Below, one piece after another: positions 8,700 to 64,000 of a stretch of 64,000 nucleotides of DNA. The stretch's first letter is position 1, and each line of letters begins with the position of its first letter. Location of the stretch: NCBI GenBank assembly GCA_016699445.1, contig CP064976.1:1618952-1682951 (forward strand), read 5' to 3'. The DNA is from Deltaproteobacteria bacterium (lineage in GTDB: Bacteria; UBA10199; JACPAL01; GCA-016699445). A program made the position numbers and the translations under genes. The notes beneath the pieces were generated by a model. The model saw nothing but the letters and a program-made list of their open reading frames with translations. It was not told the DNA's origin and made no database searches.

Positions 8700-9924
8700 A
8701 CCACTTTAATTACAAAAAAAACGAACTGTATTGCGAGGATGTTTCTTTAGCACGCATTGCTCAAGAAGTAGGGACTCCAGCTTATGTCTATAGCTATGCA
8801 ACACTGACACGTCACTTTGATGTGTTTGATAAAGCTTTTGGAAAGCTGCCACATCTGGTGTGCTTTGCGATGAAGGCTAATTCCAATATTGCTATTCTTA
8901 GAGCTCTTATCAATCGGGGAGCGGGGATTGATATTGTTTCTGAGGGGAACTTTTCCGTGCACGAACAGCAGGAGCTCCAGCAAATAAAATTGTTTATTCA
9001 GGTGTTGGAAAAACACGCGAAGAAATGGCCTATGCTCTTAAAGAAGGTATTTTACAGTTTAATATCGAATCTGAAGAAGAGGTCTTTGTTTTAAATGAGG
9101 TGGCGACAAGTTTGGGTCTCAAAGCTCCTGTGTCGTTTCGGGTGAATCCGAATATTAATCCCAAAACACATCCATATATTTCGACGGGATTGAAGAAGAG
9201 TAAGTTTGGTGTGCCTTTTGAACGGGCGATTGAGATTTATGAAAAAGCACGCAAGCTTCCTGGAATTTCTGTCCAAGGCGTGAGCTGTCATATTGGATCG
9301 CAGATTACAATTCTGACGCCGTTTCGGGATGCTTTAGCTAAAGTCAGTGTCTTGGTGGCTGAGCTGCGCAAGCGGGGTTTTGATATTCGTCGTGTAGATT
9401 TGGGTGGAGGTTTGGGGATTCCTTATAAAAATGACAAAGTACCCAGCCCCAAACAGTACGCAGATATTTTGAAAAAAGGGATTAAAGAATTAGGCTGTAC
9501 GGTCATGTTTGAACCGGGTCGTGTGATTGTTGGAAATGCGGGGATCTTGCTGACGAAAGTGATGTATAAAAAAACGAGTGGGAAAAAGACGTTTGTGATT
9601 ATTGATGGAGCCATGAATGATTTGATTCGGCCCGCTTTGTATGGATCTCATCATGAAATTTTGCCAGTACAAAGAAGAAAGGCCACAATGAAAGCTGATA
9701 TTGTGGGCCCTGTATGTGAGTCGGGAGATTTTTTTGCGGAAAATAGATCGTTCCCTGCTTTAAATTCAGATGATCTTTTAGCTGTGATGAGTGCTGGTGC
9801 TTATGGGTCTGTGATGTCGTCTAATTATAATTCACGGCCTTTAGTGGCAGAAGTGATGGTAAATGGAAATGAATTTCACGTTGTTCGGCAAAGACAGGAA
9901 TATAAAGATTTATTACGTGGTTAA
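8696..9924 (+). CDS. lysA: Diaminopimelate decarboxylase, split by an apparent single-base frameshift in a G4 run at ~8944-8947
   Basis: The N-terminal part reads ..AGIDIVSEG in one frame. The rest ([41 protein letters not shown]..) reads in the -1 frame, and one extra G restores continuity. Confidence 0.85.
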
Positions 9925-10788: not shown

Positions 10789-10871
10789 TGTCATGGCGAG
10801 CGAAGCGTGGCCATCTCCCGGCAATACGGGATATTCAAGAGATCGCCACGCCCTTCGGGCTCGCAATGACA
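10789..10871. repeat. Imperfect palindromic intergenic element, copy 1 of 3 (83 bp)
   Basis: The 5' arm tgtcatggcgagcgaagcgtggccatctcccg is followed by a variable loop and a 3' arm gagatcgccacgcccttcgggctcgc(a/g)atgaca that is its inverted complement. The ORF-track TTG start at 10788 reads through it. Confidence 0.8.
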
Positions 10872-23430: not shown

Positions 23431-26189
23431 ATGCCTAGTTATCTATCGAATATTAATGCAGCTTACATTGAGGAGCTGGAACAGAAATATCATGAAAATC
23501 CAGGTGGGATTGATCCTAGTTGGCGGTATTTTTTTGATGGTTTGAGTGTGCAGCAAAACTTGAATGATCCTCAAGCTCAAGCGGGCTCAACCATTTCCAG
23601 ATCGGCTCTCGAATTTGAAATTAAAGTCATGCAGTTGATTCAAGGATATCGAGAAATGGGCTATCTCATTGCTGATATCAACCCCTTGGATCGTGGGGTG
23701 AAAACCCATCGTTTGCTCAAGCTTGAGAATTTTGGCCTGACTGAAAATGAGCTTAATAGTGTTTGTCAGATTGGTCATGTTTTGGGTCTAGGAGCGATTC
23801 CTCTTTCGGAAATTATTAAAAACTTAAAATCCTATTATTGTTCGGCTGCGACAGTGGAGTACGAGCATATTGATGATCCTCAAACGCGTGAATGGATTCG
23901 ACGTCATGCAGAGTCAGGGATTTTGAGTCAGCCGGTGGATAAAGAAACCAAGCTTCAAGCCCTTCAAAAACTATGTGAGGCTGAAGTTTTTGAAAGTTTT
24001 CTTCATCGCAGATTTGTGGGACAAAAACGTTTTTCTGGAGAAGGTGTTGATGCGATTATCCCATTTTTGGATTACGTCATAGAGCAAGCGGCTGAGGTGG
24101 GAGCTGATGAGATTTTGTTGGGTATGGCTCATCGGGGGCGTTTGTGTGTTTTAGCTAATATATTTAAAAAAGATTTGAATGTGATGTTCGCTGAATTTTC
24201 CGGAAATCTATCGGCCAATGTGGGTGATGGTGATGTGAAGTATCACATGGGTTTTTCCAAAAATATCAAAACCAAGAATGGAAAAACTGTTCATCTCTCG
24301 CTTCTTCCTAACCCCAGTCATCTTGAAGCTGTGAATGCTGTTGTTGTCGGGACTGCCCGTGCCAAGCAGGGCTTGAAACAAGACGCTGAACAAACCAAAG
24401 TGATTCCGATCCTCTTGCATGGAGATGCTTCTTTTGCAGGCCAGGGCAGTGTTTACGAACTTCTCAATATGTCTGAATTGGAAGGTTATCACGTAGGTGG
24501 GACCATCCATGTGATTTTAAACAATCAAGTGGGTTTTACCACCAACCCTCGTGATGCTCGATCGACACCACATTCGACGGACGTGGCTAAGATGCTGGAA
24601 GTGCCTATTTTTCGTGTGAATGGAGATGAAGTGGAAGCGGTGATTCAAGTGGCCGCATTGGCTCTGAAATTTCGTCAGGAATTTAAGAGAGATGTGGTTA
24701 TCGATTTGATGGGTTATCGTCGCTATGGTCACAATGAAGGTGATGAGCCCACTTTTACTCAGCCTTTGATGTATCAGCTGATCAATAATCACCCTCGAGT
24801 CTTCGATATTTTTGCGCGTCGTTTGGTTCAAAATAAAGTTGTCGAGCAATCTCATGTGGATGGAATTGTGAATGAGTTTACCTCCACACTTGAAGATGCT
24901 TTGGTGGTTTCAAAAGAATTCAAAATATCATCCCAGATGCATTCGTTTGGTGATCGCTGGAAATCTTTTCATAAAGGTACTGAAGTGGAAGTTTTTAAAT
25001 CGGTAAAAACAGAAGTATCACTGGAGAGTTTGAAATCTGTGGGAGAGAAAATACTGGCTTCTCCCATGGGATTTAATGTTCATCCAAAAATCAAAAAACT
25101 CATCGAAGATAGAAAAGAGATGGTGGAAGGTCGCAAGCCTATAGACTGGAGTGTGGGTGAGGCCTTTGCATTCGGTACTTTGATACAAGATGGATATAAA
25201 GTGCGGCTCTCGGGGCAGGATTGCGAAAGGGGCACTTTTTCTCATCGCCATGCTGTTTTTAATGATGTGGTAACCGGTGCGAAATATGTGTCTTTGGATC
25301 CAAAGAGATCTTTTGATCCTGATTTTGAAGTCGTGAATAGTTTGTTGTCAGAGTATGCCGTTTTGGGTTTTGAATTTGGACAAAGTATTTCAAACCCCAG
25401 AAAACTCACCTTGTGGGAAGCTCAGTTTGGTGATTTTGCCAATGGTGCTCAAATCATTATCGATCAATTTATCACAACGTCAGCAGCCAAGTGGCAGCGT
25501 TATAGTGGACTCGTGATGCTGCTACCACATGGTTATGAAGGTCAGGGCCCTGAGCATTCTTCGGGTCGTTTGGAACGCTTTTTACAAGCGTGTTCCCAGA
25601 ATAATATTCAAGTATGTAATCTGACTACGCCAGCTCAATATTTTCATGTATTGCGTCGACAGATGTTGAGGGACTTTCGATTGCCCTTGATCGTCATGTC
25701 TCCTAAGAGTCTTTTAAGAAGCCCTGCAGCGGTATCATCTCTTGAAGATTTTCAAAAAGGACATTTTCAGGAAGTGATTGATGATGTTCAGATAGAAAAT
25801 AAAAAGAAAGCGAAGAGAATCGTTTTTGTAGTGGTAAGATTTACTACGAACTTTTGGACACCCGTCAGAAGAGTAAAGACGAATCAGTCAAAAATATCCC
25901 TATTATTCGCGTGGAGCAGTTTTACCCTTTCCCTCAAGCTCGTTGGGAAGAAATTTTGTCTCAATATCCCAACGCCAAGGAAATTGTCTGGTGTCAGGAA
26001 GGCCCTCAAAATATGGAAGGTTGGAGTTTTATTTTTCAGAGAGTGATGCCTCTTTTGCAAAGAAATCAGGAATTGATTTATGCAGGACGCAATCCTCAAG
26101 CTAGCCCTGCAGATGGTTTTATGCACTTGCATTTGCAGGAGCAAAAACGGATCTGTCAGGAAGCGTTAGGCGAAAAACAAAAAGGTTAA
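23431..26189 (+). CDS. sucA: 2-oxoglutarate dehydrogenase E1 component, with an apparent 1-bp frameshift in a T5 run at ~25823-25827
   Basis: E1o/TPP motifs run throughout. The C-terminal block DTRQKSKDESVKNIPIIRVEQFYPFP..EIVWCQEGPQNMEGW continues in the -1 frame, and one extra T restores KRIVFCSGKIYYELLDTRQ. Confidence 0.9.
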
Positions 26190-34975: not shown

Positions 34976-35051
34976 TGTCATGGCGAGCGAAGCGTGGCCA
35001 TCTCCCGGCGATGATCGTGAGATCGCCACGCCCTTCGGGCTCGCGATGACA
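34976..35051. repeat. Imperfect palindromic intergenic element, copy 2 of 3 (76 bp)
   Basis: It has the same arms as copy 1 and sits immediately upstream of tolB. Confidence 0.8.
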
Positions 35052-45490: not shown

Positions 45491-46717
45491 TCAATGCAGC
45501 ATCCACCTCATCAATTCGGGGTTGATGATCGTTGGTTTGCCGACATGTCCTGTCATGGCTTCCTGGGTTTTGAGGCCATTGCCAGTGATACAGATGACGA
45601 CCGATTCATCTTTTTTAATTTTACCCAGCTTGATTAATTTCTTAGCCACACCCGTGGTGACGCCACCAGCTGTCTCAGTAAAGATACCTTCGGTTTCACC
45701 CAAAAGTTTAATCGCTTCGACAATTTCTTCATCGGACACATCTTCACTCCAGCCCCCTGTTTCTTTCATCGACTGCATGGCGTAAAAACCATCGGCTGGA
45801 TTTCCAATCGCTAGCGACTTGGCGATGGTGTTGGGTTTGACCGGTTTGAAAAGTTCCCAATCATTTTTTAAGGCTGTTGCAATGGGCGAACATCCCGTGG
45901 CTTGAGCCCCGTGGACTTTGCATTTTGGGTCGGTATTGTCAGTAAGGAGGCCGATCTTATGAAACTCCTTCATCGCTTTATGGACTTTGGTTAAAAGAGA
46001 TCCACTGGCCATCGGCACGACGACGTGATTAGGCACTTTCCATCCCAACTGCTCCATCATTTCATAAGCCAATGTTTTGGATCCTTCAGCGTAGTAAGGG
46101 CGGATGTTGATATTGACGAAAGCCCATTTATACTTGGCTCCGATTTCACTGCAGAGACGATTGACTTCATCGTAGGTGCCGCGAATGCCAATCACGTTAG
46201 CCCCATAGACAAGGGTGCCCAAGACTTTACCTGCTTCCAAATCATAAGGAATAAAGACGTAACATTCGAGTCCCGCTGAGGCAGCATTGGCCGCGACAGA
46301 GTTGGCGAGATTTCCCGTCGACGCGCACGAGACGGTTTTAAAACCAAACTCTTTGGCTTTTGAAAGTGCGACAGAAACCACACGATCTTTAAATGAAAGA
46401 GTGGGGTAGCAAACAGCATCGTTTTTAACCCAAACTTCTTTGACGCCTAAAGCTTTCGCCAAATTTTTAGCAGGAACCAATGGTGTGTATCCTGCGAGAA
46501 CTCCCACGGTAGGATCTTTTTCGATAGGAAGAAGCTCTCGGTAACGCCACATGGTTTGAGGACGCTTTTCAATTTTTTCTCGTGTGAGAGATTTGGCAAT
46601 CTGGTCGTAATTGTAATCCACTTCCAGAGGACCAAAACAAAATTCACAGACATGAGTGGGTGCGATCGGAAAATGATGACCACACTCGCGACACTTAAGA
46701 CCTTTTATGTATGACAT
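45491..46717 (-). CDS. Threonine-synthase-family PLP enzyme with an N-terminal Cys4 zinc ribbon
   Basis: The ribbon is KCRECGHH..CEFCFG. The ThrC PLP-lysine motif TLSFKDRVVS and Gly-rich loops are present. The ORF track extends to 46774 and overlaps the upstream gene. Confidence 0.8.
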   Translation of the reverse strand: MSYIKGLKCRECGHHFPIAPTHVCEFCFGPLEVDYNYDQIAKSLTREKIEKRPQTMWRYRELLPIEKDPTVGVLAGYTPLVPAKNLAKALGVKEVWVKNDAVCYPTLSFKDRVVSVALSKAKEFGFKTVSCASTGNLANSVAANAASAGLECYVFIPYDLEAGKVLGTLVYGANVIGIRGTYDEVNRLCSEIGAKYKWAFVNINIRPYYAEGSKTLAYEMMEQLGWKVPNHVVVPMASGSLLTKVHKAMKEFHKIGLLTDNTDPKCKVHGAQATGCSPIATALKNDWELFKPVKPNTIAKSLAIGNPADGFYAMQSMKETGGWSEDVSDEEIVEAIKLLGETEGIFTETAGGVTTGVAKKLIKLGKIKKDESVVICITGNGLKTQEAMTGHVGKPTIINPELMRWMLH

Positions 46718-46727
46718 ATATTTGCTC

Positions 46728-47527
46728 CTAATGAATAAATTTCTTCTGCAAACTAAAATATCTTTCTCCGCCATCGGGAAAGACAGTGACGACAGTTTTA
46801 TTTTTATCTATTTGCTGAGCGATCTGACGACTCGCCACAAAAGCGGCTCCGCACGAGATGCCCACCAGCAAACCTTCTTTTTGAGCGACTTCACGAGCGC
46901 CTAAAAAAGCTTCTTCATCGGTGATCGTGATGATCTCATCCACCAAAGAACGATCCAAGATCGTGGGAACAAATCCCGGGCCGATTCCTTGAATCTTATG
47001 ATGCCCCACTTTCCCTTGGCTGAGAGTCGGTGACGCAGCGGGTTCTACCGCAATGATTTTGGTTCCGTTCTTCTTTAAAATTTGAGCCGCTCCCATCAGC
47101 GTCCCGCTCGTTCCGATACCGGCGACGAAAAAATCGATCGGTTTCCCGAGATCCTTTTGAATCTCCTGAATTGTCTGATGATGCGCTTTGGGCGTTTCTT
47201 CATTTTCAAACTGATCAAAAAAATACGCGTCTGTTTTTTGGCATAATTCTTTGGCCCGATCGAGAGCGCCTTTATCCCAATATAAGCCAATCCAATCCCC
47301 GAATTTCCCGTCGTCGCGGCCACAATAGTGCCGCGAGCCGCGAGCCGCGAGCTCTTCTCCGCTTTCTCTAGAAGGTGTATGACAACTCGATCTTTAACCG
47401 AACCACCTGGATTATACTTCTCCAGCTTGGCATACACGGACGCACACCCCTCTGGCAGGCTTTTACTCAGCCTTAAAAGGGGGGTATTTCCAATGGCTTC
47501 AAGCAACGATTCCATAATAAGATCCAC
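46728..47527 (-). pseudogene. O-acetylserine sulfhydrylase (CysK/MccA-like) pseudogene with an internal ~115-bp out-of-frame deletion
   Basis: The N-terminal 110 aa (..NPGGSVKDR..TTGNSGIGLAYIG) and the C-terminal ~200 aa (DKGALDRAKEL..FVAGIGTSGTL..GIGPGF..) are CysK-like but lie in different frames. About 39 aa of the conserved core (..YKL.LTMPE..ERR.LL.A.GA.LVLT..) is absent between them. A (ccgcgag)x3 heptamer tandem sits at 47331-47351. Confidence 0.7.
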
Positions 47528-47531
47528 AAAT

Positions 47532-47700
47532 AAAAAAACCTCTTCCAGATAAGAAGAGGTGTGATTGAAGGTCTCTTCTCATCTGTCCCCATCTGCATTT
47601 AACTGCAGGGTTGGAGTTAGCACCATTTCTCCTTTTTTTTAGGAGACGGTTGCTGTGACGTCTTAGGGCCTTTCCCTCGGTCACTCTTGATAAGGTGCCG
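47532..47700 (-). ncRNA. SAM-I (S-box) riboswitch with an intrinsic terminator expression platform
   Basis: The minus-strand RNA reads CACCUUAUCAAGAGUGACCGAGGGAAAGGCCCUAAGACGUCACAGCAACC..GGAGAAAUGGUGCUAACUCCAACCCUGCAGUUAAAUGCAGAUGGGGACAGAUGAGAAGAG. This matches the S-box core (UUAUCAAGAG.G..GAGGGA..GGCCC.A.GA..GCAACC, AUGGUGCUAA.UCC..CUGCAG, GAUGAGAG). A CCUCUUC/GAAGAGG hairpin plus U7 follows at 47532-47559, immediately upstream of the cysK-like start. Confidence 0.8.
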
Positions 47701-51528: not shown

Positions 51529-51987
51529 ATGAGTCCGGGGGGAACTGTGAGTGACTGGAAAGTTTTACTCGTTGATGACGAAAAAGATTTTTGGGAAGAT
51601 CTCTATGATCGTCTATCCGTTGTCTTCGGAAAGATGAATGTTCTGATTGCTTCTTCCGGTGAAGAGGCTCTTCAAATTCTCAAAAATCAACCTATTGGTG
51701 TGATCCTTTCGGATCAACGCATGCCAGGTGTTTCGGGTCATGAATTATTAGAAGAAGTCTCACGACGTTGGCCTGATGTTGTGCGAATACTTCTGACAGC
51801 ATTTCCTGATATCAGATCTGCCAAAGACTCTGTGAATAAAGGTGAAATTTATCAGTATGTTTCAAAAAGCACATCTTTGTCGGAAATTGAATCTTTAGTG
51901 AAAAGTGGTTTGCAGAAGTTTGAGTCGGATGAAAAGACGTCAGCTTTTGAAGGAAAAACAGGAGTTTTTGAAAAAGCTTTATATTGA
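51529..51987 (+). CDS. Response-regulator receiver domain, probably the N-terminal part of a REC-PP2C protein
   Basis: The receiver motif is VLLVDDEKD..LSDQRMPGVSGHEL. Its 3' end overlaps the PP2C ORF in another frame. Confidence 0.6.
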   Translation: MSPGGTVSDWKVLLVDDEKDFWEDLYDRLSVVFGKMNVLIASSGEEALQILKNQPIGVILSDQRMPGVSGHELLEEVSRRWPDVVRILLTAFPDIRSAKDSVNKGEIYQYVSKSTSLSEIESLVKSGLQKFESDEKTSAFEGKTGVFEKALY

Positions 51988-52687
51988 AGAGCATCTTCTT
52001 CCAGAATCGACTCCCAAAATACCCGGCCTCTATTTCGATTCTTACTATCAATCGGCTCAGGAAGTCGGAGGCGATTATTTTGATTTTATCGAAATTGATG
52101 AACGTTATTTAGGTATTGTGGTGGCAGATGTTTCGGGAAAAGGGTTGGAGAGTTCGATGTTGATGTCGATTGTCTGTCATGCCTTGAGGTCTCAGGCAGG
52201 ATTGAGTTTGTCTCCTCGAGAGGTCATTGATGAGACTGAAGGTCTTCTTCTTCCCAAGCTTGGACAAAATCACTTTGTCACACTTTTTTATGCAATTTTG
52301 GATCGCAAGAAGATGACACTCAAGTGTTCTAATGCTGGTCATCCTCCATTGCTCGTTGGAAACCGTATAACAGGAAAAACTCATTGGGTTCGGCCCAAGG
52401 GTGTGGCTTTGGGGCTTAGTCGTTTTCAAAGAATTACTGTCAGGGAAGAGTGTGAGGTTTCACTAAATCCAGGAGATTTTCTTTTTTTCTATACAGATGG
52501 TGTGACGGAAGCTCGTAATAGCGATGATGATTGTTTTGGTCGTAAACGTTTGGAAACATTTTTCTCCGAAACTTCCCGAGAGAAAATTCAAATCATTCAT
52601 GAGTTAAAAACAGAATTAGAAAATTTTGCAGAAGGTGCCCCACAGCAAGATGACGTGACGGCGGTCTATCTAGAAAGGTGTGCGTAG
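51929..52687 (+). CDS. PP2C/SpoIIE-family Ser phosphatase (RsbU/RsbP-like)
   Basis: The motifs EVGGDYFDF, VADVSGKGL, FYTDGVTEA and DDVTAVYL are present. It may be fused to the upstream receiver through a frameshift. Confidence 0.7.
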   Translation: MKRRQLLKEKQEFLKKLYIEEHLLPESTPKIPGLYFDSYYQSAQEVGGDYFDFIEIDERYLGIVVADVSGKGLESSMLMSIVCHALRSQAGLSLSPREVIDETEGLLLPKLGQNHFVTLFYAILDRKKMTLKCSNAGHPPLLVGNRITGKTHWVRPKGVALGLSRFQRITVREECEVSLNPGDFLFFYTDGVTEARNSDDDCFGRKRLETFFSETSREKIQIIHELKTELENFAEGAPQQDDVTAVYLERCA

Positions 52688-56409: not shown

Positions 56410-57054
56410 ATGGAATTTTTTCTAGATACCGCTGACACAAAAGAAATCAAAGAATGTTGGGACATGGGAGTGATTGATGGCGTGACCACCAATCCTTCTC
56501 TCGCAGCTAAAACAGGGCGTAATTATGACGAGACCATTAAGGAAATTGCGACAATTGTCGATGGCCCAATCAGTGCAGAAACGGTGAGTTTAGATTATGA
56601 AGGCATGCTCAAAGAAGCCTATCACTTTGCAAAAATGCACAAGAATATCGTGATCAAAGTCCCTATGACATTGACGGCGATGAAGGTGGTTAAAAAACTT
56701 GCTAGCGAAGGTATTAAAACAAACGTCACCTTACTTTTTAGTCCTAACCAAGCTCTTCTGGCCGCAAAAGCTGGAGCGACTTATGTGAGCCCTTTCGTCG
56801 TACGTTTCGATGATATTTCGGAAGAAGGAATGCTGTTAATCGAACACATCCGCCAGATTTATGACAATTACGAATTCAAAACAAAAATCCTGGTCGCATC
56901 GATTCGCAATCCTATCCACGTCCGTGACTCCGCTTTGATTGGTGCCGATGTTGCGACGATTCCCTACAGTGTTATCAAACAATTGGCCAACCATCCTTTG
57001 ACTGACATTGGTATTGAGAAGTTTTTGAAGGATTGGGAAAAGGTGCCGAAGTAA
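56410..57054 (+). CDS. Short transaldolase / fructose-6-phosphate aldolase family protein
   Basis: A 214-aa protein with [13 protein letters not shown], the Schiff-base Lys region IVIKVPMT and a TIM-barrel pattern. Confidence 0.8.
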
Positions 57055-57087
57055 ACTTTACAAAATCCGGTCTTACCCCAATTCCGC

Positions 57088-57112
57088 ACCTCTTTTTGAA
57101 AGAGGTTGTTTT
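57088..57112 (+). terminator. Rho-independent terminator after the transaldolase gene
   Basis: An 8-bp stem ACCTCTTT / AAAGAGGT with a 3-nt loop is followed by TGTTTTAATT. Confidence 0.55.
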
Positions 57113-57131
57113 AATTGGTGTAAAATAATTT

Positions 57132-57207
57132 TGTCATGGCGAGCGAAGCGTGGCCATCTCCCGCGATAAAACGTGAGATCGCCACGCCCTTCGGGCTCGC
57201 GATGACA
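57132..57207. repeat. Imperfect palindromic intergenic element, copy 3 of 3 (76 bp)
   Basis: It has the same arms as copies 1 and 2 and lies between convergent genes. Confidence 0.8.
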
Positions 57208-57238
57208 CTCAGGAAAAATCAACTGCGGAATTTTGGTC

Positions 57239-57844
57239 TTATTTGAAAATCGATCTCATCTCAGCATCGACATTCAGTAATCTTGTTGAATTTAATTCAG
57301 GATGAGGGTGTCGACTTAATCTCAAAGTATTATTACTTTCTAAGTAAGGTGCTAATCCGGCAATTTCATGAAACGCTGAGTATAATTGCTGAAAAACGAA
57401 TGTTATAAATGAGACGCTTCCACCTCCATCTTCGCTAATCTGATTGGATGGCATCTCCCCAAAAAGTTGAAATGTTAGGCTTTCAGACTGAGGGGTATTT
57501 AAAGAAGGCGCCAGATCAAAAAAAACTCGGACTCCACACTCAAGATTTGGATAAGAAGCTAAATCCATTGTGATGCGAGGTCCTTGTGATGTTTCTTCAA
57601 CTTTTGGATTCTCAAATTTTTTTGAAGGGTAGAAGCCTTGAAATTCCTTTCTTACAGTCAGTAAGACTTTTAGGACTTCAGTGCATCTTCGACTTAAATC
57701 TTCAGTTGTTGTGACACCTTCTGTGATACCTTCTATGATATCAAGCTTCACACACCCCGATGCAGGTTCATGCACGGGGTGCGGATCGAGATTTCGAAAA
57801 GCCAGACTTTCAAACTGACTGTACTCCAGAGGTCTTGGTATCAT
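57239..57844 (-). CDS. Hypothetical 201-aa protein translationally coupled to the S8 protease array
   Basis: The start codon overlaps the stop of protease A (TAATG). There is no signal peptide and no recognised motif. Confidence 0.4.
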   Translation of the reverse strand: MIPRPLEYSQFESLAFRNLDPHPVHEPASGCVKLDIIEGITEGVTTTEDLSRRCTEVLKVLLTVRKEFQGFYPSKKFENPKVEETSQGPRITMDLASYPNLECGVRVFFDLAPSLNTPQSESLTFQLFGEMPSNQISEDGGGSVSFITFVFQQLYSAFHEIAGLAPYLESNNTLRLSRHPHPELNSTRLLNVDAEMRSIFK

Positions 57845-60666
57845 TAGGGTGTTGTGGGACATGTATCTGCCAATGAAGGACGGTAACCTGCTTGGCAAGT
57901 ATTAAAAGTGGCGGTGGTGTTTTGTCTGACAAAGCAGGTTGGGCAACCTAGCTCGAGGTAATTAATAGGCGTACCATCACGCATCATGCGAGCTTGAGCT
58001 GTGGACAAGGCTGTAGCGTAGCTTTGCCCTGCTTGAGTGCTGTCTGTAGGCACAATGGTTCCATCACGTCTAGCCGCCCGCATGGTGAGCGAATACATCT
58101 GACCAATCATAGGGCTGGCCGTAGGATTGGCTGTGAACTGAAGTGAAGGGAAAGAAAAATATCCAGCTGTTTTTTGAGTATCGAGATAAGAACTTGAAAG
58201 CCGAGAGCTTGAAGGAAAAAGCTGAGTGCTGGTAGTACCGCCCATAAATCGGGCACCAGTAGCTGTGCCACCAAAACTGGTCGGATCAAAAACAACAACA
58301 GGTTTAAGCACAGGATAGAGCATGCGAGTAGGTGCTCCTGTGTCAATAGTATCAGGAGTGGACGCTCCAACACGGACTCCTCCAGTTTCACCCGTCAAAT
58401 AGAAGACAGGTTGAGGCCCGATTCCATCAGCATAACGAGGGATTAAGCTCATATTGGAAGGCGGGTATTCAGAAGCCGGGAGAAATGTTTCGGTCCCATT
58501 GATGGTGCGCGCAGTTCTGGGAGAAGAGGTCATGTTTTGATTGAGACGAACATGATTAGGTCTACCGCGCATGTAGATGGTATTTTCTTTTTCTAATTTT
58601 AGATAGCCTCGACCATATTTGTAGCTGGTTCTGACTTCCCCATAGCGAGGATTATTAGGATCTTCGGAATATCGAGCATAAATGGATTGGAGACCGACAC
58701 TTCTTTCAGCCAGTCTTATGAGGGCTGCTTTGAGTTCGGAAGGGTTTCGTCTGAATTGGGGATAACGATCGAGAAGTAAAGCTGTCATTCCAGAAGTGAC
58801 TGCAGCGGCTCCTGAAGTACCGGAAGCAATACCAGGACTTTCTCTCAAAGAAGGAGAAGGTGCTATAAAGTCGGGCTTAACCGAATCAGAATTTAAATCA
58901 CTGTGTGATTGAAGTGTGAGGAAGTTTCGATTTAATTCATTAGGCTGCATTCCAAAAGTAAGAGCAGGGCCGCGGCTACTGTTTGTTGAAGGTCCTTGAA
59001 CTCCACAACCTGAATCTAATGGAGCAATGCATAAAGCCGCAGCGACAGTTACAGATTCTGGAAATGTGTTTGATTCCGACAAAGATACCGAAGTGTTATA
59101 TATTTTTAATGTATTATATATTGTAAACAGATTGATGTATGTGGGGTCATGGCTAGTTGAGGCGGATCGACTTTTTTCAATAACAATTCCGTAGCGAGCT
59201 AGGCCTGCAGGACAATTTGATGATGGAATATCTGTCTGGATCAAATCTCCAGAAACAGTTTCTGTGTTCGAATTATCATATAAAATGAATCTTTTGGAAT
59301 AATAGATACCCATTCCATTATCTGAGACCAAAGCTCTCCATCCTCTCTCGCCAGGGAGATATTTTACCAATGTCAATGTATAGTCGATAGAATCTTGCGG
59401 AGAGAGACCGGCATCTATTCTGATGGGGTAATCTGATGACGCTGTAGGCTCCAGGCAACCCAGATCATTGACGATTACTTCCCCTGACACATTGCTAGTT
59501 TCCGCAAGGTCAATATTTGTAGGTGTGACAGCATCAGAAATAAAAGTTGTAGCTGTCTGTGTATTCCAATTGAGTAATTGAGGGTATCGGGTTGAGGGGG
59601 TAAATAGGCCTGACCAATGCATTCCAGGAGCAGCATAATTTCCAGCGCTAGCAATGATAAGAGTATTTTGATCTATGGCTTTTTGATGTTGGGCTTGGGC
59701 TGGGCCCGGAAAGGCATTGCGGCCTACACGACGATCGATCAAATTTGCGAGAGACGTATTAATAATATCAGGGTTTAATGTAAGTGCTGTGTTGATACCT
59801 TGAATCAGCGCTTGAGAAGAATCACTTGCATGAATTAATAAAAAATGAGCCTCGGGAGCTATTTCATAGATCAACTGAAGCATTTTATTTCCATGATCGT
59901 TATAGGATTCGGGAGTTGGAGGAGTTAGATTTCTTGTGATAGTTGTTCCTGGAGGAATTAATCCTCTTGAGATGAGATCAGGAAACTGGCGCTCATCAAA
60001 TTTGTCGACAATAGCAATCGTGACAGGATTTCCGTCTCCGCCGCGGCCACTCCCTGTCACACGTCCGGTCAGCTGCCACCAATTATCATTGGTTCCTATC
60101 CAACCAGCAGTTTTGGCTGTGGTATCCGTATAACCTGTGATTTCAAGTCCTGCGACGTATTGGGAGAGTTCTCTAAGATGAGAAATTGGGAGTTCAATTT
60201 CAACAGCCCTTGGATCAAAGTTAGGAGTGACTTTGGCTCCATGTTCAGTCAAGAGAGAAGGAAAATCTCTTTTTTGACCTGAATAATCATAATCAAAAGC
60301 AGTGAGGATCAGTCTATCTTCAATGACACGATCGTGAGAGATGTGACCAGCTTTAGCCCAATTGGCATCTCCATTTTCATAAGCTGTGAGAGCTGTCAGA
60401 AGTTGATCTCCAAGAATGCCCCACAACATTGTCTCTTCATCGGACTTTTCTTTTAAGCCAATAGATTTTGCGGAAGCTTTGAGAGCTTCAAGCTGTTCTT
60501 TCTTTTGATTGGCAATAGAATCTGGAAGCGGATCCTTGAGAGTCTCTTGGAAAACATTTTGAGAAATATCTTTAATGTCTTCAACAACAGGCTTTGTGTG
60601 AGCTGACTGCGTGAATGAAAGCAGTGTTAAACAAGAGAGAAGAGCGATTTTATTTTTTAGAATCAT
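57844..60666 (-). CDS. Secreted subtilisin-like (S8) serine peptidase, paralog A, with an I9-like propeptide, a large insert between the oxyanion Asn and the catalytic Ser, and a Cys-rich C-terminal domain
   Basis: A signal peptide is followed by Asp IAIVD, His DHGN, Asn SAGN and Ser GTSGAAAVTSG. The C-terminus is ..GCPTCFVRQNTTATFNTCQAGYRPSLADTCPTTP. Confidence 0.75.
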   Translation of the reverse strand: MILKNKIALLSCLTLLSFTQSAHTKPVVEDIKDISQNVFQETLKDPLPDSIANQKKEQLEALKASAKSIGLKEKSDEETMLWGILGDQLLTALTAYENGDANWAKAGHISHDRVIEDRLILTAFDYDYSGQKRDFPSLLTEHGAKVTPNFDPRAVEIELPISHLRELSQYVAGLEITGYTDTTAKTAGWIGTNDNWWQLTGRVTGSGRGGDGNPVTIAIVDKFDERQFPDLISRGLIPPGTTITRNLTPPTPESYNDHGNKMLQLIYEIAPEAHFLLIHASDSSQALIQGINTALTLNPDIINTSLANLIDRRVGRNAFPGPAQAQHQKAIDQNTLIIASAGNYAAPGMHWSGLFTPSTRYPQLLNWNTQTATTFISDAVTPTNIDLAETSNVSGEVIVNDLGCLEPTASSDYPIRIDAGLSPQDSIDYTLTLVKYLPGERGWRALVSDNGMGIYYSKRFILYDNSNTETVSGDLIQTDIPSSNCPAGLARYGIVIEKSRSASTSHDPTYINLFTIYNTLKIYNTSVSLSESNTFPESVTVAAALCIAPLDSGCGVQGPSTNSSRGPALTFGMQPNELNRNFLTLQSHSDLNSDSVKPDFIAPSPSLRESPGIASGTSGAAAVTSGMTALLLDRYPQFRRNPSELKAALIRLAERSVGLQSIYARYSEDPNNPRYGEVRTSYKYGRGYLKLEKENTIYMRGRPNHVRLNQNMTSSPRTARTINGTETFLPASEYPPSNMSLIPRYADGIGPQPVFYLTGETGGVRVGASTPDTIDTGAPTRMLYPVLKPVVVFDPTSFGGTATGARFMGGTTSTQLFPSSSRLSSSYLDTQKTAGYFSFPSLQFTANPTASPMIGQMYSLTMRAARRDGTIVPTDSTQAGQSYATALSTAQARMMRDGTPINYLELGCPTCFVRQNTTATFNTCQAGYRPSLADTCPTTP

Positions 60667-60692
60667 AAGAGAGTCCTTAAATTATTAAATAT

Positions 60693-63503
60693 TTAGGGTG
60701 TTGTGGGACATGTATCAGCCAAAGAAGGACGGTAAGCAGCCTGACAAGTATTAAAAGTGGCGGTTGTGTTTTGTCTGACAAAGCAGGTTGAGCAACCTAG
60801 CTCGAGATAATTAATAGGGGTGCCATCACGCATAGAGCGAGCTTGAGCTGCGGACAAGGCTGTATTGTAGTCTGAAGTAGCTTGAGTGCTGCCCGTAGGG
60901 ACCAGTGAGCCATCACGTCTAGCGGCTCGCATGGTGAGCGAATACATCTGACCAATCATAGGGCTGGCCGTAGGATTGGCTGTGAACTGAAGTGAAGGGA
61001 AAGAAAAATATCCAGCTGTTTTTTGAGTATCGAGATAAGAACTTGAAAGCCGAGAGCTTGAAGGAAAAAGCTGAGTGCTGGTAGTACCGCCCATAAATCG
61101 GGCACCAGTAGCTGTGCCACCAAAACTGGTCGGATCAAAAACAACAACAGGTTTAAGCACAGGATAGAGCATGCGAGTAGGTGCTCCTGTGTCAATAGTA
61201 TCAGGAGTGGACGCTCCAACACGGACTCCTCCAGTTTCACCCGTCAAATAGAAGACAGGTTGAGGCCCGATTCCATCAGCATAACGAGGGATTAAGCTCA
61301 TATTGGAAGGCGGGTATTCAGAAGCCGGGAGAAATGTTTCGGTCCCATTGATGGTGCGCGCAGTTCTGGGAGAAGAGGTCATGTTTTGATTGAGACGAAC
61401 ATGATTAGGTCTACCGCGCATGTAGATGGTATTTTCTTTTTCTAATTTTAGATAGCCTCGACCATATTTGTAGCTGGTTCTGACTTCCCCATAGCGAGGA
61501 TTATTAGGATCTTCGGAATAACGAGCATAAATGGATTGAAGCCCGACGCTTCTTTCAGCCAATCTCATGAGAGCGGCTTTCAGTTCTGAGGGATTTCGTC
61601 TGAATTGAGGGTAACGATCGAGAAGTAAAGCTGCCATTCCAGAAGTGACTGCAGCGGCTCCTGAGGTGGATGGATCGCTTGAATCAAAGGGTAGATAAGC
61701 AGTTGGGGTGACAAAATCAGGTTTCACAGCATCGACATCTGAATCTTTGCGGGATTGAAGTGTGAGGAAGTTGCGATTTAAATCATTAGGCTGCCTTCCA
61801 GCAATGACAGCAGGCCCTCGGCCTGAATAGCTGCGCGGACCTTGAACTGGACAAGGTGAATTAGAAGCTGCGAAGCAAGTGGCGGCTCCTACTGTGACAG
61901 TCTGTGGCCATGTACTGCTCTCCACTAACGAGGATGCTGTAGTAAAAACCCTCATGGGTTGGTGTGTGGTGAAAACGCTTATGAATGCTGGATTTGCCCC
62001 AGATGAAATAGGGATATCACTTGAGATGACTATGCCATATCGATCTTGGTTAGTTGCGCAGTTTGAGCTGGGGATGTTTGCTTGAATCAAATTTCCAGAA
62101 GTAGCATCATTAGTATGATTTAAAAAACCGATAAATCTTATGGTAATTTCCATTCCTCCACTGCCATCATAGGCCACAGTTCTCCAACCCCTTTGAGACG
62201 GAATATATTTAACAAGAAATAATTGGTAAGAACTTGGATGATCATTAGAAAATCCAGCTTCGATGAGGATGGGGAGGTCACTGGAATCTGAGTCTGCTAA
62301 ACATCCTAGATCATTAACAACAACTTCTCCAGAGACATTACTTGTTTCGGCTAAATCAACCAATGGCCCTGGAGGTGAATCTAAAATTGGAATGCTGGCT
62401 GTTTGAGTATTCCAATTAAGAAGTTTAGGGTACATCGTTGAGCGCGTAAAAAGCCCCGCCCAATGCATTCCAGGGTCAGCTTGATTTCCTGCTGAAGCTA
62501 CAGTGAGTATTCCACTGTTAAAAGCTTCTTCATGGGATGCTTGAGTCGGTCCTGGAAAGGGTGCATGCCCTAGTTTTCGATCAAAAAAAGATCCTATTGA
62601 TGTATTAATAATATCCGGATTCATTGAAATTGCTGCACGTATTCCCTGCGCACCGGAATCGACCGTATTACCAACATTTATCAAAATATAACGAGCTTCG
62701 GGTGCTTGCTCATAGGCTAAGGCAAGCATGAGATTTCCATGATCACTCACATTGGAGGGGTCAAGATTTCGAGCGATGACCGATCCTGCCGGGATAAGGC
62801 CTCTGGAAATCAGATTGGGGAATTGGCTTTCATCAAACATATCTACAATGGCAATGGTCACAGGATTACCATCACCACCACGGCCACTGCCTGTCACACG
62901 TCCAGTCAGCTGCCACCAGTCGGCGTTTGTTCCTCCCCAAGAAGAGCTTTTTGCTGTTGTATAAAGATATCGGGCAATCGCAAGCCTTGCGACATGATTG
63001 GATAGCTCTCTGAGCTCTGAGATGGGGACTTCGATTCCAAAAGCTCTAGGATCTTCATCGGTAAGAATCTTAGCTCCATGTTGAGTCAACACTTCATGAA
63101 AATCTCTTTTTTGACCTGAATAATCATAATCAAAAGCAGTGAGGATCAGTCTATCTTCAATGACACGATCGTGAGGGATGTGAGCCGCTTTGGCCCAATC
63201 AGAATCTCCATTTTCATAAGCTGTGAGAGCTGTCAGAAGTTGATCTCCAAGAATGCCCCACAACATTGTCTCTTCATCGGACTTTTCTTTTAAGCCAATA
63301 GATTTTGCGGAAGCTTTGAGAGCTTCAAGCTGTTCTTTCTTTTGATTGGCAATAGAATCTGGAAGCGGATCCTTGAGAGTCTCTTGGAAAACATTTTGAG
63401 AAATATCTTTAATGTCTTCAACAACAGGCTTTGTGTGAGCTGACTGCGTGAATGAAAGCAGTGTTAAACAAGAGAGAAGAGCGATTTTATTTTTTAGAAT
63501 CAT
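60693..63503 (-). CDS. Secreted subtilisin-like (S8) serine peptidase, paralog B
   Basis: The first ~100 aa and ~250 aa of the C-terminal region are DNA-identical to paralog A. The catalytic core is divergent. Confidence 0.75.
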   Translation of the reverse strand: MILKNKIALLSCLTLLSFTQSAHTKPVVEDIKDISQNVFQETLKDPLPDSIANQKKEQLEALKASAKSIGLKEKSDEETMLWGILGDQLLTALTAYENGDSDWAKAAHIPHDRVIEDRLILTAFDYDYSGQKRDFHEVLTQHGAKILTDEDPRAFGIEVPISELRELSNHVARLAIARYLYTTAKSSSWGGTNADWWQLTGRVTGSGRGGDGNPVTIAIVDMFDESQFPNLISRGLIPAGSVIARNLDPSNVSDHGNLMLALAYEQAPEARYILINVGNTVDSGAQGIRAAISMNPDIINTSIGSFFDRKLGHAPFPGPTQASHEEAFNSGILTVASAGNQADPGMHWAGLFTRSTMYPKLLNWNTQTASIPILDSPPGPLVDLAETSNVSGEVVVNDLGCLADSDSSDLPILIEAGFSNDHPSSYQLFLVKYIPSQRGWRTVAYDGSGGMEITIRFIGFLNHTNDATSGNLIQANIPSSNCATNQDRYGIVISSDIPISSGANPAFISVFTTHQPMRVFTTASSLVESSTWPQTVTVGAATCFAASNSPCPVQGPRSYSGRGPAVIAGRQPNDLNRNFLTLQSRKDSDVDAVKPDFVTPTAYLPFDSSDPSTSGAAAVTSGMAALLLDRYPQFRRNPSELKAALMRLAERSVGLQSIYARYSEDPNNPRYGEVRTSYKYGRGYLKLEKENTIYMRGRPNHVRLNQNMTSSPRTARTINGTETFLPASEYPPSNMSLIPRYADGIGPQPVFYLTGETGGVRVGASTPDTIDTGAPTRMLYPVLKPVVVFDPTSFGGTATGARFMGGTTSTQLFPSSSRLSSSYLDTQKTAGYFSFPSLQFTANPTASPMIGQMYSLTMRAARRDGSLVPTGSTQATSDYNTALSAAQARSMRDGTPINYLELGCSTCFVRQNTTATFNTCQAAYRPSLADTCPTTP

Positions 63504-63529
63504 AAGAGAGTCCTTAAATTATTAAATAT

Positions 63530-64000
63530 TTAGGGTGTGGTGGGACAGGTATCAGCCAAAGAAGGACGGTAACCTGCTTGACAAGTATTAAAAGTGGCAG
63601 TGGTGTTTTGTGGCACGTAGCACGTTGGGCAACCTAGCTCGAGATAATTAATAGGAGTGCCATCACTCATCATGCGAGTAAGAGCGGCTTGATAAGCATC
63701 CATAAAATTTTGGTTGGCTTGAGTACTGCCCGTAGGGACCAGTGAGCCATCACGTCTAGCGGCTCGCATGGTGAGCGAATACATCTGACCAATCATAGGG
63801 CTGGCCGTAGGGTTAGCTGTGAACTGAAGCGAGGGGAATGAGAAGTAGCCTGCAGTTTTCAGTGTATCGAGATAAGAGCTTGAAAAACGTGAATCTGAAG
63901 GAAAAAGCTGAGTGCTGGTGTTTCCACCCATAAATCGGGCGCCAGTAGCTCTGCCGCCAAAGCTGGCCGGATCAAAAACAACAACAGGTTTAAGAACAGG
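63530..64000 (-). CDS. Subtilisin-like peptidase paralog C, C-terminal part only; the gene continues beyond the window edge
   Basis: The frame is open to base 64000. The C-terminal domain is ~85% identical to A and B, and the 26-bp spacer is identical. Confidence 0.7.
   Translation of the reverse strand, partial: PVLKPVVVFDPASFGGRATGARFMGGNTSTQLFPSDSRFSSSYLDTLKTAGYFSFPSLQFTANPTASPMIGQMYSLTMRAARRDGSLVPTGSTQANQNFMDAYQAALTRMMSDGTPINYLELGCPTCYVPQNTTATFNTCQAGYRPSLADTCPTTP

What the first reader, a model, noticed from the sequence alone, without database searches (positions are those of the whole stretch)
57844..64000. Tandem array of at least three secreted S8 protease paralogs with mosaic identity (identical ends, divergent catalytic core)
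Paralogs A and B share 100% DNA identity over the signal peptide and first ~100 codons, and over a ~700-bp block in the C-terminal region. The identical 26-bp spacers add to this. The propeptide end, the catalytic Asp/His/Asn region and a ~330-aa insert before the catalytic Ser are only ~50-60% identical, and the last ~60 codons are ~85%. Sharp identity boundaries indicate recent gene conversion within a diversifying family. It looks like a cassette system for varying protease specificity or antigenicity. The array continues past the window edge. Each protein ends in a conserved 4-Cys module (GCPTC...NTC...DTCPTTP).
Basis: seen in the sequence. Interest (0 to 1): 0.6.

Follow-up and report, generated by a model that had tools for sequence, protein, structure and literature searches.

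The report
Tandem protease genes with converted ends
Neighbouring genes for secreted subtilisin-type proteases in an uncultured bacterium are old, divergent duplicates whose ends were recently overwritten with each other's sequence by gene conversion: a clear example of a known process, in a rare and uncharacterised protease subfamily.

Summary
On the minus strand lie gene A (57844-60666, 940 aa), gene B (60693-63503, 936 aa) and the 3' end of gene C (63530->64000), separated by identical 26-nt spacers. A and B are 100% identical over nt 1-300 and nt 1996-2588 but only 45-75% identical between. All copies are Peptidase_S8 proteins with invariant Asp/His/Asn/Ser, signal peptides, a ~210-residue insert and an Ig-like C-terminal domain ending in four Cys.

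Synonymous sites are saturated in the core (pS 0.72, dN/dS ~0.15) and unchanged in the blocks. So these are old paralogs under purifying selection, with recent gene conversion at the ends. Segment trees disagree: B~C and A~D in the core, A=B in the C-terminal block. An independent related genome shows the same pattern, a 636-nt perfect block between two of its paralogs.

A programmed cassette or antigenic-variation system is not supported. Every copy is full length with its own ribosome-binding site and signal peptide, and the 26-nt spacers suggest one operon. The subfamily is very rare: 12 clusters at E<=1e-30 among 1.84 billion representatives, and no member carries a functional name. I rate it a new member of known kinds, of moderate to low interest.

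The parts
57844..60666 (-). Gene A, 940 aa. Layout: signal peptide, helical hairpin, prodomain, S8 catalytic domain with a beta-rich insert, C-terminal Ig-like domain, 4-Cys tail.
60693..63503 (-). Gene B, 936 aa, identical to protein record QQR79537.1 / IPJ69_09255.
   Evidence: ORF. P0001 sequence identical. Accession. PF00082 at 44.9 bits.
63530..64000 (-). 3' end of gene C (156 codons plus stop). The full protein is P0002, 946 aa.
   Evidence: The translation is an exact suffix of P0002.
60667..60692 (-). 26-nt B-A spacer ATATTTAATAATTTAAGGACTCTCTT. AAGGA lies 7 nt before the ATG. There is no room for a promoter or terminator.
63504..63529 (-). 26-nt C-B spacer, identical to the B-A spacer.
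60367..60701 (-). Junction identity block, copy 1 (335 nt): last 9 nt of B including the stop, the spacer, and codons 1-100 of A (signal peptide, linker, helical hairpin).
   Evidence: domain mapping
63204..63538 (-). Junction identity block, copy 2 (335 nt): end of C, the spacer, and codons 1-100 of B. 100% identical to 60367-60701.
58079..58671 (-). Identity block 2 in A (593 nt, codons 666-863): most of the C-terminal beta-sandwich domain.
60928..61520 (-). Identity block 2 in B, 100% identical to 58079-58671.
58816..60258 (-). Variable core of A (codons 137-617): C-terminal half of the prodomain, the Asp/His/Asn part of the catalytic domain, and the ~210-aa insert. 45-75% DNA identity to B, pS 0.72, dN/dS 0.15.
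61665..63095 (-). Variable core of B, the counterpart of 58816-60258.
60004..60006 (-). Catalytic Asp221 codon of A (IAIVD motif).
59893..59895 (-). Catalytic His258 codon of A (DHGN motif).
59638..59640 (-). Oxyanion Asn343 codon of A (SAGN motif).
58813..58815 (-). Catalytic Ser618 codon of A (GTSGAAA motif). B has STSGAAA.
57859..57945 (-). C-terminal Cys module of A (C908, C911, C924, C936; GCPTC...NTC...DTCPTTP). The last two Cys are kept in more than 90% of the wider family.
60598..60666 (-). Predicted Sec signal peptide of A (MILKNKIALLSCLTLLSFTQSAH, about residues 1-23). The exact cleavage site is not determined.
   Evidence: Hydrophobic 11-mer with mean Kyte-Doolittle hydropathy 2.3 after two Lys; the same layout in most family members. 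By inspection only; no dedicated predictor was run.
57239..57844 (-). Downstream ORF (~201 aa from the ATG that overlaps A's stop as TAATG; 219 aa from an upstream TTG). No family match. Probably co-translated with A.
   Evidence: Only a weak match to the 219-aa ORF in the related array (E 0.001-0.009).

Best explanation
This is a lineage-specific tandem expansion of a rare, uncharacterised subfamily of secreted subtilisin-like (S8) serine proteases. It has at least four copies in this genome.

Each gene encodes, in order: a signal peptide, a helical hairpin, a subtilisin-type prodomain, a catalytic domain carrying a ~210-residue beta-rich insert between the oxyanion Asn and the catalytic Ser, an Ig-like C-terminal domain, and a Cys-containing tail.

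The copies are old paralogs kept under purifying selection. They differ in the part that determines substrate binding and autoprocessing: the prodomain C-terminal half, the active-site cleft and the insert.

Homologous recombination between neighbouring copies (intra-array gene conversion or repeated unequal crossing-over) has recently and repeatedly overwritten two regions. One is the 5' junction unit: the end of the upstream ORF, the spacer with its ribosome-binding site, the signal peptide and the helical hairpin. The other is the C-terminal domain. The catalytic cores stay distinct.

Shown here: the S8 identity, the mosaic, saturated versus zero synonymous divergence, segment incongruence, and recurrence in a second genome.

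Inferred: co-transcription as one operon (from the 26-nt spacers), secretion, different substrate specificities of the copies, and that core divergence is maintained because it is too great for recombination and/or selected for.
For: S8 identity:
- PF00082 above the gathering score for A and B.
- D221/H258/N343/S618 are invariant in the close family and in the 16-sequence alignment of full-length members.
- The motifs align to solved subtilisins, Tk-SP and C5a peptidase.

Mosaic. Runs of 593 nt and 335 nt, against at most 52 in shuffles.

Age contrast:
- Core pS 0.72, dS ~2.5, dN/dS 0.15.
- Blocks: 0 differences in the 593-nt perfect run and in nt 1-300.
- Third-position identity 0.41 in the core against 1.00 in the blocks.
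- Intermediate shoulders (dS 0.15-0.46) point to several events of different age.

Recombination:
- Core: B~C (74% and 63%) and A~D (80% and 60%).
- C-terminal block: A=B at 100%, D 91%, C 87%.
- Residues 1-100: A=B=C.
- A 7-mismatch patch at nt 301-328 makes A resemble D inside an otherwise A=B stretch.

Independent replication: in contig CAZKQW010000011.1 the paralogs L3 and L4 share a 636-nt perfect block within otherwise divergent genes, and L1 and L2 share 93-97% patches.

Operon: 26-nt spacers with AAGGA; promoter-like and terminator-like sites are not in excess.

Lineage-specific expansion: distant relatives are solo genes.

Precedent for a junction-spanning recombination unit in a bacterial tandem paralog cluster: Tsuru & Kobayashi 2008 (PMC2568036).
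Against: - Read coverage and individual long reads could not be inspected, so some exaggeration of identity by short-read polishing cannot be excluded.
- DNA of copies C (5' part) and D was not retrievable, so four-way analysis is at protein level only.
- Gene conversion cannot be separated from double unequal crossing-over.
- Average dN/dS of 0.15 over saturated sites does not exclude positive selection at a few cleft residues.
- No expression, secretion or activity data exist.
- B has Ser instead of the usually conserved Gly before Thr-Ser at the active site, so its activity is uncertain.
- Gene A itself has no protein record although B, C and D do. This is unexplained.
Confidence: 0.8

Rival explanations
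1. The ends are original and the cores were replaced. The copies are recent duplicates whose identical ends are ancestral, and the divergent catalytic cores were imported later by recombination with divergent alleles or paralogs from other strains. On this view the flanks act as recombination handles.
For: It gives the same mosaic pattern. The cores are flanked on both sides by long perfect homology (300 nt and 593 nt), which is ideal for double crossover. The family turns over quickly between genomes: proteases <=51% identical against flanks at 64-94%.
Against: - The identical blocks are shared by different subsets of copies. The head is A=B=C; the C-terminal block is A=B only, with C at 87% and D at 91%.
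- Shoulders of intermediate divergence surround the perfect blocks. That fits repeated end homogenisation better than a single recent duplication.
- All four cores are closer to one another (50-74%) than to any paralog of the related genome (35-53%).
- No donor sequences were found in 5.8 billion or 1.84 billion protein sets.
Confidence: 0.1
2. A programmed or selected cassette-shuffling system. The array exists to generate new protease variants (specificity or antigenicity) at high frequency by swapping cores between conserved handles.
For: Variable segments are bracketed by perfectly conserved handles. Prodomain-end and cleft-lining segments differ among copies. The same architecture recurs in a second genome.
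Against: - There is no expression-site/silent-cassette asymmetry. All copies are complete, with a ribosome-binding site and a signal peptide.
- No inverted repeats of 40 nt or more were found in the window. The window was not searched for recombinase or reverse-transcriptase genes; the flanking genes that were examined are housekeeping or regulatory.
- Core synonymous sites are saturated, so the cores are old and stable, not recently shuffled.
- dN/dS is 0.15.
- There is no evidence of host association, and the organism is known only as a MAG labelled 'Deltaproteobacteria bacterium'.
Confidence: 0.07
3. Assembly or polishing artefact. The perfect blocks result from collapsed or cross-polished repeats in a metagenome-assembled genome.
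For: The source is a MAG. A frameshift-like split of a neighbouring gene at homopolymers suggests residual indel errors. Coverage could not be checked.
Against: - Polishing cannot turn ~60% identity into 100%. It could at most sharpen regions that were already near-identical.
- Three ordered copies with different cores were assembled through the repeats on a 2.75-Mb contig.
- Both ORFs are intact.
- The mosaic includes graded shoulders and a D-like micro-patch.
- An independent assembly of a different organism shows the same phenomenon in the same family.
Confidence: 0.05
4. Purifying selection alone keeps the ends identical, with no recombination.
For: The ends encode functionally constrained modules (signal peptide, C-terminal domain).
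Against: There are zero synonymous differences in 198 and 100 codons, while the adjacent regions have pS of 0.3-0.7. Third-position identity is 1.00 against 0.41. The same C-terminal domain is only 87-91% identical in copies C and D and ~57% in the related genome. The non-coding spacer is identical too.
Confidence: 0.01

Closest known systems
Staphylococcus aureus lpl tandem paralog cluster (Tsuru & Kobayashi 2008, PMC2568036)
   Same: Same-orientation tandem paralogs of exported proteins. Homologous recombination at conserved blocks causes incongruent histories of segments within one ORF. [quoted passage not shown] Here that unit is the 335-nt junction block.
   Different: In lpl the conserved recombination site is central and the ends are variable. 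Here the ends are homogenised and the centre is variable. The proteins are lipoproteins, not proteases. The lpl inference rests on many genomes of one species, whereas here there is one genome plus one distant relative.
Multi-domain bacterial and archaeal subtilases of family S8: Vpr (8jmw), Tk-SP (3afg, 9ues), C5a peptidase ScpA (1xf1, 7bj3), Csp proteases (4i0w)
   Different: - Only ~20-25% identity over the catalytic core.
- The profile retrieves only 621 proteins at E<=1e-3 and 12 at E<=1e-30 out of 1.84 billion, so this is a distant clade.
- The Asp motif is IVDxFD rather than D[ST]G.
- No Pfam PA or Inhibitor_I9 match.
- The terminal FN[TV]C...CP Cys tail is specific to this clade.
Segmental gene-conversion antigenic variation systems (Neisseria pilE/pilS, Borrelia vlsE, Anaplasma msp2); general knowledge, see review PMC4534519 listed
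   Same: Variable segments are flanked by conserved sequence, and sequence is transferred between tandem or nearby paralogous copies by homologous recombination.
   Different: Those systems have one expressed locus plus promoterless, truncated donor cassettes, and they operate under host immune pressure. Here all copies are complete, translatable genes in what looks like one operon. It is the conserved parts, not the variable parts, that were recently transferred.
Concerted evolution of prokaryotic paralogs (e.g. survey PMC6053082, listed; tuf and rRNA examples from general knowledge)
   Same: Within-genome paralogs are more alike than cross-genome counterparts in the converted segments.
   Different: Homogenisation is partial (segmental) and leaves a long-diverged functional core, rather than covering the whole gene.
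Staphylococcus aureus spl operon of tandem serine-protease paralogs (recalled from memory, not checked here)
   Same: Several secreted serine-protease paralogs encoded head-to-tail and co-transcribed, thought to give a set of enzymes with different specificities.
   Different: The Spl proteins are chymotrypsin-like (S1), ~200 aa, single-domain. No comparable mosaic of perfect and saturated blocks is known to me.

Membership tests
Peptidase family S8 (subtilases) | Sequence match to the family profile above the curated threshold | tested here: met
   PF00082: A 42.6 bits, B 44.9 bits, cutoff 21.8. The profile of the family hits more than 140 PDB subtilases.
Peptidase family S8 (subtilases) | Catalytic Asp, His, Ser in that order, plus the oxyanion Asn, in their conserved motif contexts | tested here: met
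   D221 (IAIVD), H258 (DHGN), N343 (SAGN) and S618 (GTSGAAA) are invariant in the 7- and 16-sequence alignments and align to the corresponding motifs of Tk-SP. B has STS instead of GTS.
Peptidase family S8 (subtilases) | Subtilisin alpha/beta fold | tested here: met
Peptidase family S8 (subtilases) | Proteolytic activity and autoprocessing of the prodomain | not testable with these tools
   Needs expression and an assay.
Subtilisin I9-type propeptide | Profile match to Inhibitor_I9, or a beta-alpha-beta-beta-alpha-beta prodomain docked on the cleft | tested here: inconclusive
PA-domain-containing subtilases (ScpA, SBT3, lactocepin type) | A PA domain inserted between the oxyanion Asn and the catalytic Ser | tested here: not met
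Expression-site/silent-cassette antigenic variation system | One expressed gene plus truncated, promoterless or untranslatable donor cassettes | tested here: not met
   A, B and C (P0002) are full-length ORFs with ATG, an AAGGA ribosome-binding site and a signal peptide. Only D is annotated from an internal Met, and the reason is unknown.
Expression-site/silent-cassette antigenic variation system | Recent transfer of the VARIABLE segment, generating new variants | tested here: not met
   The variable core has saturated synonymous divergence. The recently transferred parts are the conserved ends.
Expression-site/silent-cassette antigenic variation system | Variant subpopulations detectable within one culture or sample | not testable with these tools
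   No read-level data. The metagenome scan found no further copies.
Tandem paralog cluster evolving by recombination at conserved blocks (lpl type, PMC2568036) | Same-orientation tandem paralogs with conserved blocks long enough for homologous recombination | tested here: met
   Periods of 2849 and 2837 nt; perfect blocks of 335 and 593 nt.
Tandem paralog cluster evolving by recombination at conserved blocks (lpl type, PMC2568036) | Incongruent relationships of different segments of the same ORF | tested here: met
   Core: B~C and A~D. C-terminal block: A=B. Head: A=B=C. Protein-level identities, not formal tree tests.
Tandem paralog cluster evolving by recombination at conserved blocks (lpl type, PMC2568036) | [quoted passage not shown] | tested here: met
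   The 335-nt identical junction block crosses the stop codon and the spacer. It includes only 9 nt of the upstream ORF, so the 3' component is minimal.
Diversity-generating retroelement target | A template/variable repeat pair with adenine-specific differences, plus a reverse transcriptase | tested here: not met
   No such repeat pair appears among the repeats of the window. Differences between copies are spread over ~1.4 kb and saturate synonymous sites. A reverse transcriptase gene was not specifically searched for.

The most novel reading that the evidence does not exclude
The perfectly homogenised flanks may be maintained because they work as portable recombination handles. These would let the whole unit (prodomain end, active-site cleft and insert) be exchanged as a cassette between array positions and between strains. 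The population would then carry a shuffled, rapidly turning-over repertoire of secreted proteases, for example in an arms race with prey, competitors or protease inhibitors. The clade-specific insert and the Cys-tailed Ig-like domain would define a new functional class of subtilase.
Probability: 0.12. Interest if true: 0.55.

Novelty: new member of a known kind. Interest (0 to 1): 0.3.

Why it matters
This is a clean example of how segmental gene conversion shapes a bacterial tandem gene family. Export, translation-initiation and C-terminal modules are kept identical, while the specificity-determining part of the enzyme stays divergent for a long time. Synonymous sites make the contrast very clear: zero against saturated.

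It also flags a very rare, functionally unnamed subtilase clade found only in metagenomes. The clade has an unusual Asp motif, a large insert and a Cys-tailed Ig-like C-terminal domain, and it is expanded to 4-5 copies in one deep-branching uncultured lineage. If the copies differ in specificity, the array would be a compact set of natural active-site variants on a common scaffold, which could be useful for protease engineering.

None of this overturns current understanding.

Tried and rejected
- **Source contig beyond the window.** Exact-protein look-ups for A, B, C and D found no record. The species-representative genome scan returned only the related contig. So the 5' part of C, all of D and the upstream promoter region could not be read as DNA.
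- **Metagenome scan.** The family patterns gave 143 pattern matches, none a relative.
- **Second homolog search with a 16-sequence profile.** It added only two ordinary multi-domain S8 proteins.
- **afdb50 fold search.** The library was unavailable.
- **Accessory ORFs.** Those tested were the window 219-aa ORF and L001 219, 390 and 193 aa, plus L003 172 aa and L006 100 aa in the cross-comparison only. None has a Pfam family above threshold. The only cross-similarity is a 23-residue match (E 0.001-0.009), so a conserved partner protein (inhibitor or chaperone) is not established.
- **Promoter and terminator scan of 56900-64000.** Nothing above shuffled expectation.
- **Lipoprotein reading of LLSC at residues 9-12.** Rejected on position: the Cys is at residue 12 and the hydrophobic stretch continues after it (inspection).
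- **Taxonomy via SucA.** Only 'Deltaproteobacteria bacterium' MAG labels. One relative at 82%, the rest <=65%, so the lifestyle (e.g. predatory) remains unknown.
- **DGR, invertible-element and purifying-selection-only explanations.** Rejected.

Full report
**What is there**

The region holds head-to-tail ORFs on the minus strand:
- A: 57844-60666, 940 aa.
- B: 60693-63503, 936 aa.
- C: the last 156 codons, 63530 to the window edge.

The A-B and B-C spacers are the same 26-mer, ATATTTAATAATTTAAGGACTCTCTT. AAGGA lies 7 nt before each ATG. The 26 nt leave no room for a promoter or terminator, and consensus scans show no excess of either across 56900-64000. Co-transcription is therefore likely, but it is inferred.

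A's stop overlaps the ATG of a further ORF as TAATG (57239-57844). That ORF has no family assignment.

**The mosaic**

A and B are 77.5% identical overall, but very unevenly:
- nt 1-300: perfect.
- nt 301-328: 7 mismatches.
- nt 329-406: perfect again.
- about nt 420-1850: 45-75%.
- from nt 1852: rising to a perfect 593-nt run at nt 1996-2588.
- the remaining ~235 nt: 77-95%.

Across gene junctions the perfect stretch is 335 nt. It covers the last 9 nt of the upstream ORF with its stop, the spacer, and 100 codons of the next gene; 60367-60701 equals 63204-63538.

Shuffling alignment columns never gives an identical run above 52 nt. At third codon positions the maximum is 29, against 197 observed.

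- The '~700 bp' block is 593 nt perfect (737 nt at ~98%).
- The insert is ~210 aa, not ~330 aa. N343 to S618 is 275 residues, against 66 in subtilisin BPN'.
- B reads GCSTC, not GCPTC.

**What the proteins are**

Both full-length proteins match Pfam Peptidase_S8 above the gathering score. Asp221, His258, Asn343 and Ser618 are invariant in the close family and in the 16-sequence alignment of full-length members. They align with the catalytic motifs of solved subtilases.

An AlphaFold2 model built on a 15-sequence alignment has pLDDT 71.7 and pTM 0.71. Its layout is:
- residues 1-47: a low-confidence N-terminal region containing the signal peptide.
- residues 49-97: a helical hairpin.
- residues 118-176: a beta-alpha-beta-alpha-beta prodomain-like unit.
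- residues ~187-655: the catalytic domain, interrupted by a beta-rich insert at roughly 355-600.
- residues ~685-940: a beta-rich C-terminal domain.

The tail carries four Cys (C908, C911, C924, C936). The last two, in the context FN[TV]C...CP, are kept in more than 90% of the wider family. Four further conserved Cys lie in or just after the insert.

N-termini across the family have the basic-then-hydrophobic layout of Sec signal peptides. This was judged by inspection; no dedicated predictor was available.

**How old are the parts**

Nei-Gojobori estimates for A versus B:

| Region | Result |
|---|---|
| Core, codons 137-617 | pS 0.72 (saturated, dS ~2.5), dN 0.37, dN/dS ~0.15 |
| nt 1-300 and the 593-nt perfect run | no differences at all |
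| Shoulders and tail | dS 0.15-0.46 |

Third-position identity is 0.41 in the core and 1.00 in the blocks.

So the core is an ancient divergence under purifying selection. The blocks are very recent copies, and there have been several transfer events of different ages. Purifying selection alone cannot explain zero synonymous change or the identical non-coding spacer.

**Recombination signal across four copies**

I used the protein records of C (P0002) and of a fourth copy D (P0003, same 2.75-Mb contig). Segment-wise identities disagree:
- Prodomain end and core: B pairs with C (85%, 74%, 63%) and A pairs with D (80%, 57%, 60%).
- Residues 1-100: A=B=C.
- Residues 666-863: A=B at 100%, D 91%, C 87%.
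- The 7-mismatch patch at nt 301-328 makes A D-like inside an A=B stretch.

This is the signature of patchy gene conversion, or of repeated unequal crossing-over, between array members.

**Independent replication and family context**

Only one other genome carries close relatives: GCA_964555055.1, contig CAZKQW010000011.1.

There the array is: aminotransferase, then [L1, L2, 219-aa ORF, L3, 390-aa ORF, 193-aa ORF, L4], then folK, then transaldolase. A fifth paralog sits alone on another contig. In the window the same flanking genes are present, but the array lies after transaldolase and is inverted.

In that independent assembly, L3 and L4 share a 636-nt perfect block inside otherwise divergent genes, and L1 and L2 share 93-97% patches. 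The behaviour therefore recurs in the family, which argues against an assembly artefact.

Syntenic flanking orthologs are 64-94% identical between the two genomes, and SucA is 82%. The best cross-genome protease pairs reach only 43-51%. So the family turns over quickly.

An exhaustive profile search of 1.84 billion representatives found only 621 hits at E<=1e-3, 12 at E<=1e-30, and about six clusters covering the full architecture. All nine relatives looked up in the cluster table are unnamed metagenomic proteins. The more distant members that were examined are solo genes in unrelated neighbourhoods. The tandem expansion is thus specific to this lineage.

**Interpretation**

The best explanation is a lineage-specific, probably co-transcribed battery of secreted S8 protease isozymes. 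Their specificity-bearing module is the prodomain C-terminal half (which must fit the cleft for folding and autoprocessing), the Asp/His/Asn half of the catalytic domain, and the insert. This module has stayed divergent for a long time. The junction unit and the C-terminal domain are repeatedly homogenised by homologous recombination between neighbours.

Two explanations for why the core escapes are plausible and not exclusive. It may be too diverged (~55% DNA identity) to support recombination, or conversion there may be selected against.

The closest described analogue is the S. aureus lpl cluster. [quoted passage not shown] The polarity differs: in lpl the centre is conserved and the ends are variable.

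**Why not a cassette or antigenic-variation system**

- All copies are complete and translatable.
- There is no silent-donor/expression-site asymmetry.
- The recently moved DNA is the conserved part, not the variable part.
- No inverted repeats of 40 nt or more were found in the window, and the flanking genes that were examined are housekeeping or regulatory. The window was not searched specifically for recombinase or reverse-transcriptase genes.
- The average dN/dS is low.

A population-level role of the identical flanks as handles for exchanging cores is not excluded, but it is untested.

**Caveats**

- I could not inspect reads or coverage.
- The source is a MAG. A neighbouring gene is split at homopolymer runs, which hints at residual indel errors.
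- From memory, and unverified, the IPJ locus-tag prefix belongs to a long-read activated-sludge MAG study.
- Polishing could sharpen near-identity into identity, but it could not create the mosaic.
- DNA for most of C and for D was unavailable, so four-way tests are at protein level.
- Secretion, co-transcription, activity and differing specificity are inferences.

**Verdict**

The gene-conversion and S8 interpretations are supported. The 'cassette system' interpretation is not. This is a new member of known kinds: a rare subtilase clade, and segmental concerted evolution in a tandem array. Interest is about 0.3.

Noticed in passing
window 57132-57207, 34976-35051, and a half copy at 10830-10871: A 76-nt palindromic REP/MITE-like element; the core GCCACGCCCTTCGGGCTCGC occurs 3 times, against 0 expected. 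It folds into a -43.4 kcal/mol hairpin (z -5.1). One copy sits exactly at the array boundary, between the convergent ends of the transaldolase gene and the ORF downstream of protease A. It could act as a bidirectional terminator or mark the rearrangement junction relative to the related genome.
   Followed up: partly
window 47576-47696 (-): A SAM-I riboswitch (RF00162, 74.5 bits against a gathering score of 44.4), ~800 nt upstream of a threonine-synthase-like ORF (45491-46774, minus strand).
   Followed up: no
window 51529-52687 (+): The response-regulator/SpoIIE (PP2C) phosphatase gene is split into two overlapping ORFs in different frames (51529-51987 and 51905-52687). It is a single 390-aa gene in the related contig (L001 5974-7146). 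The overlap contains A5/T5/A5 homopolymers. This is either a real frameshift or a long-read indel error, and it bears on assembly quality.
   Followed up: partly
window 57844-60666 (-): Gene A is an intact 940-aa ORF, yet no protein with this sequence is recorded in the ~15-billion-protein collection. Its neighbours B, C and D from the same contig are recorded. Possibly A was annotated as a pseudogene or with other boundaries in the source record.
   Followed up: partly
P0003 (copy D, same source contig, outside the window): The fourth copy is annotated from an internal Met that corresponds to residue 80 of A, so it lacks a signal peptide as annotated. Its 5' end may be disrupted or mis-called. 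Its position relative to C is unknown.
   Followed up: no
P0002 (copy C) residues ~38-47, outside the window: C carries a 10-residue insertion (ISPSISQDVF context) within the otherwise identical head. It looks like a small tandem duplication of the ISQN/ISQD motif.
   Followed up: no
window 1-64000, and the array at 57844-64000: GC skew is positive on the + strand across the whole window (cumulative skew rises steadily), including over the protease array, which is encoded on the minus strand. The array is therefore probably on the lagging strand.
   Followed up: no
L001 9896-12799 (+): The annotated start of the related paralog L1 (P0004) lacks a signal peptide. The ORF extends upstream to a GTG at 9896 and then encodes a typical one (KKNQFILSLGLFMSLFYNLQAQE), so the start was probably mis-called.
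   Followed up: partly
window 23431-26046 (+) and the whole window: SucA is 100% identical to the MAG record. The next relative is 82% and all others are <=65%, labelled only 'Deltaproteobacteria bacterium' or 'bacterium'. The organism belongs to a deep, uncultured lineage with one sequenced relative.
   Followed up: partly
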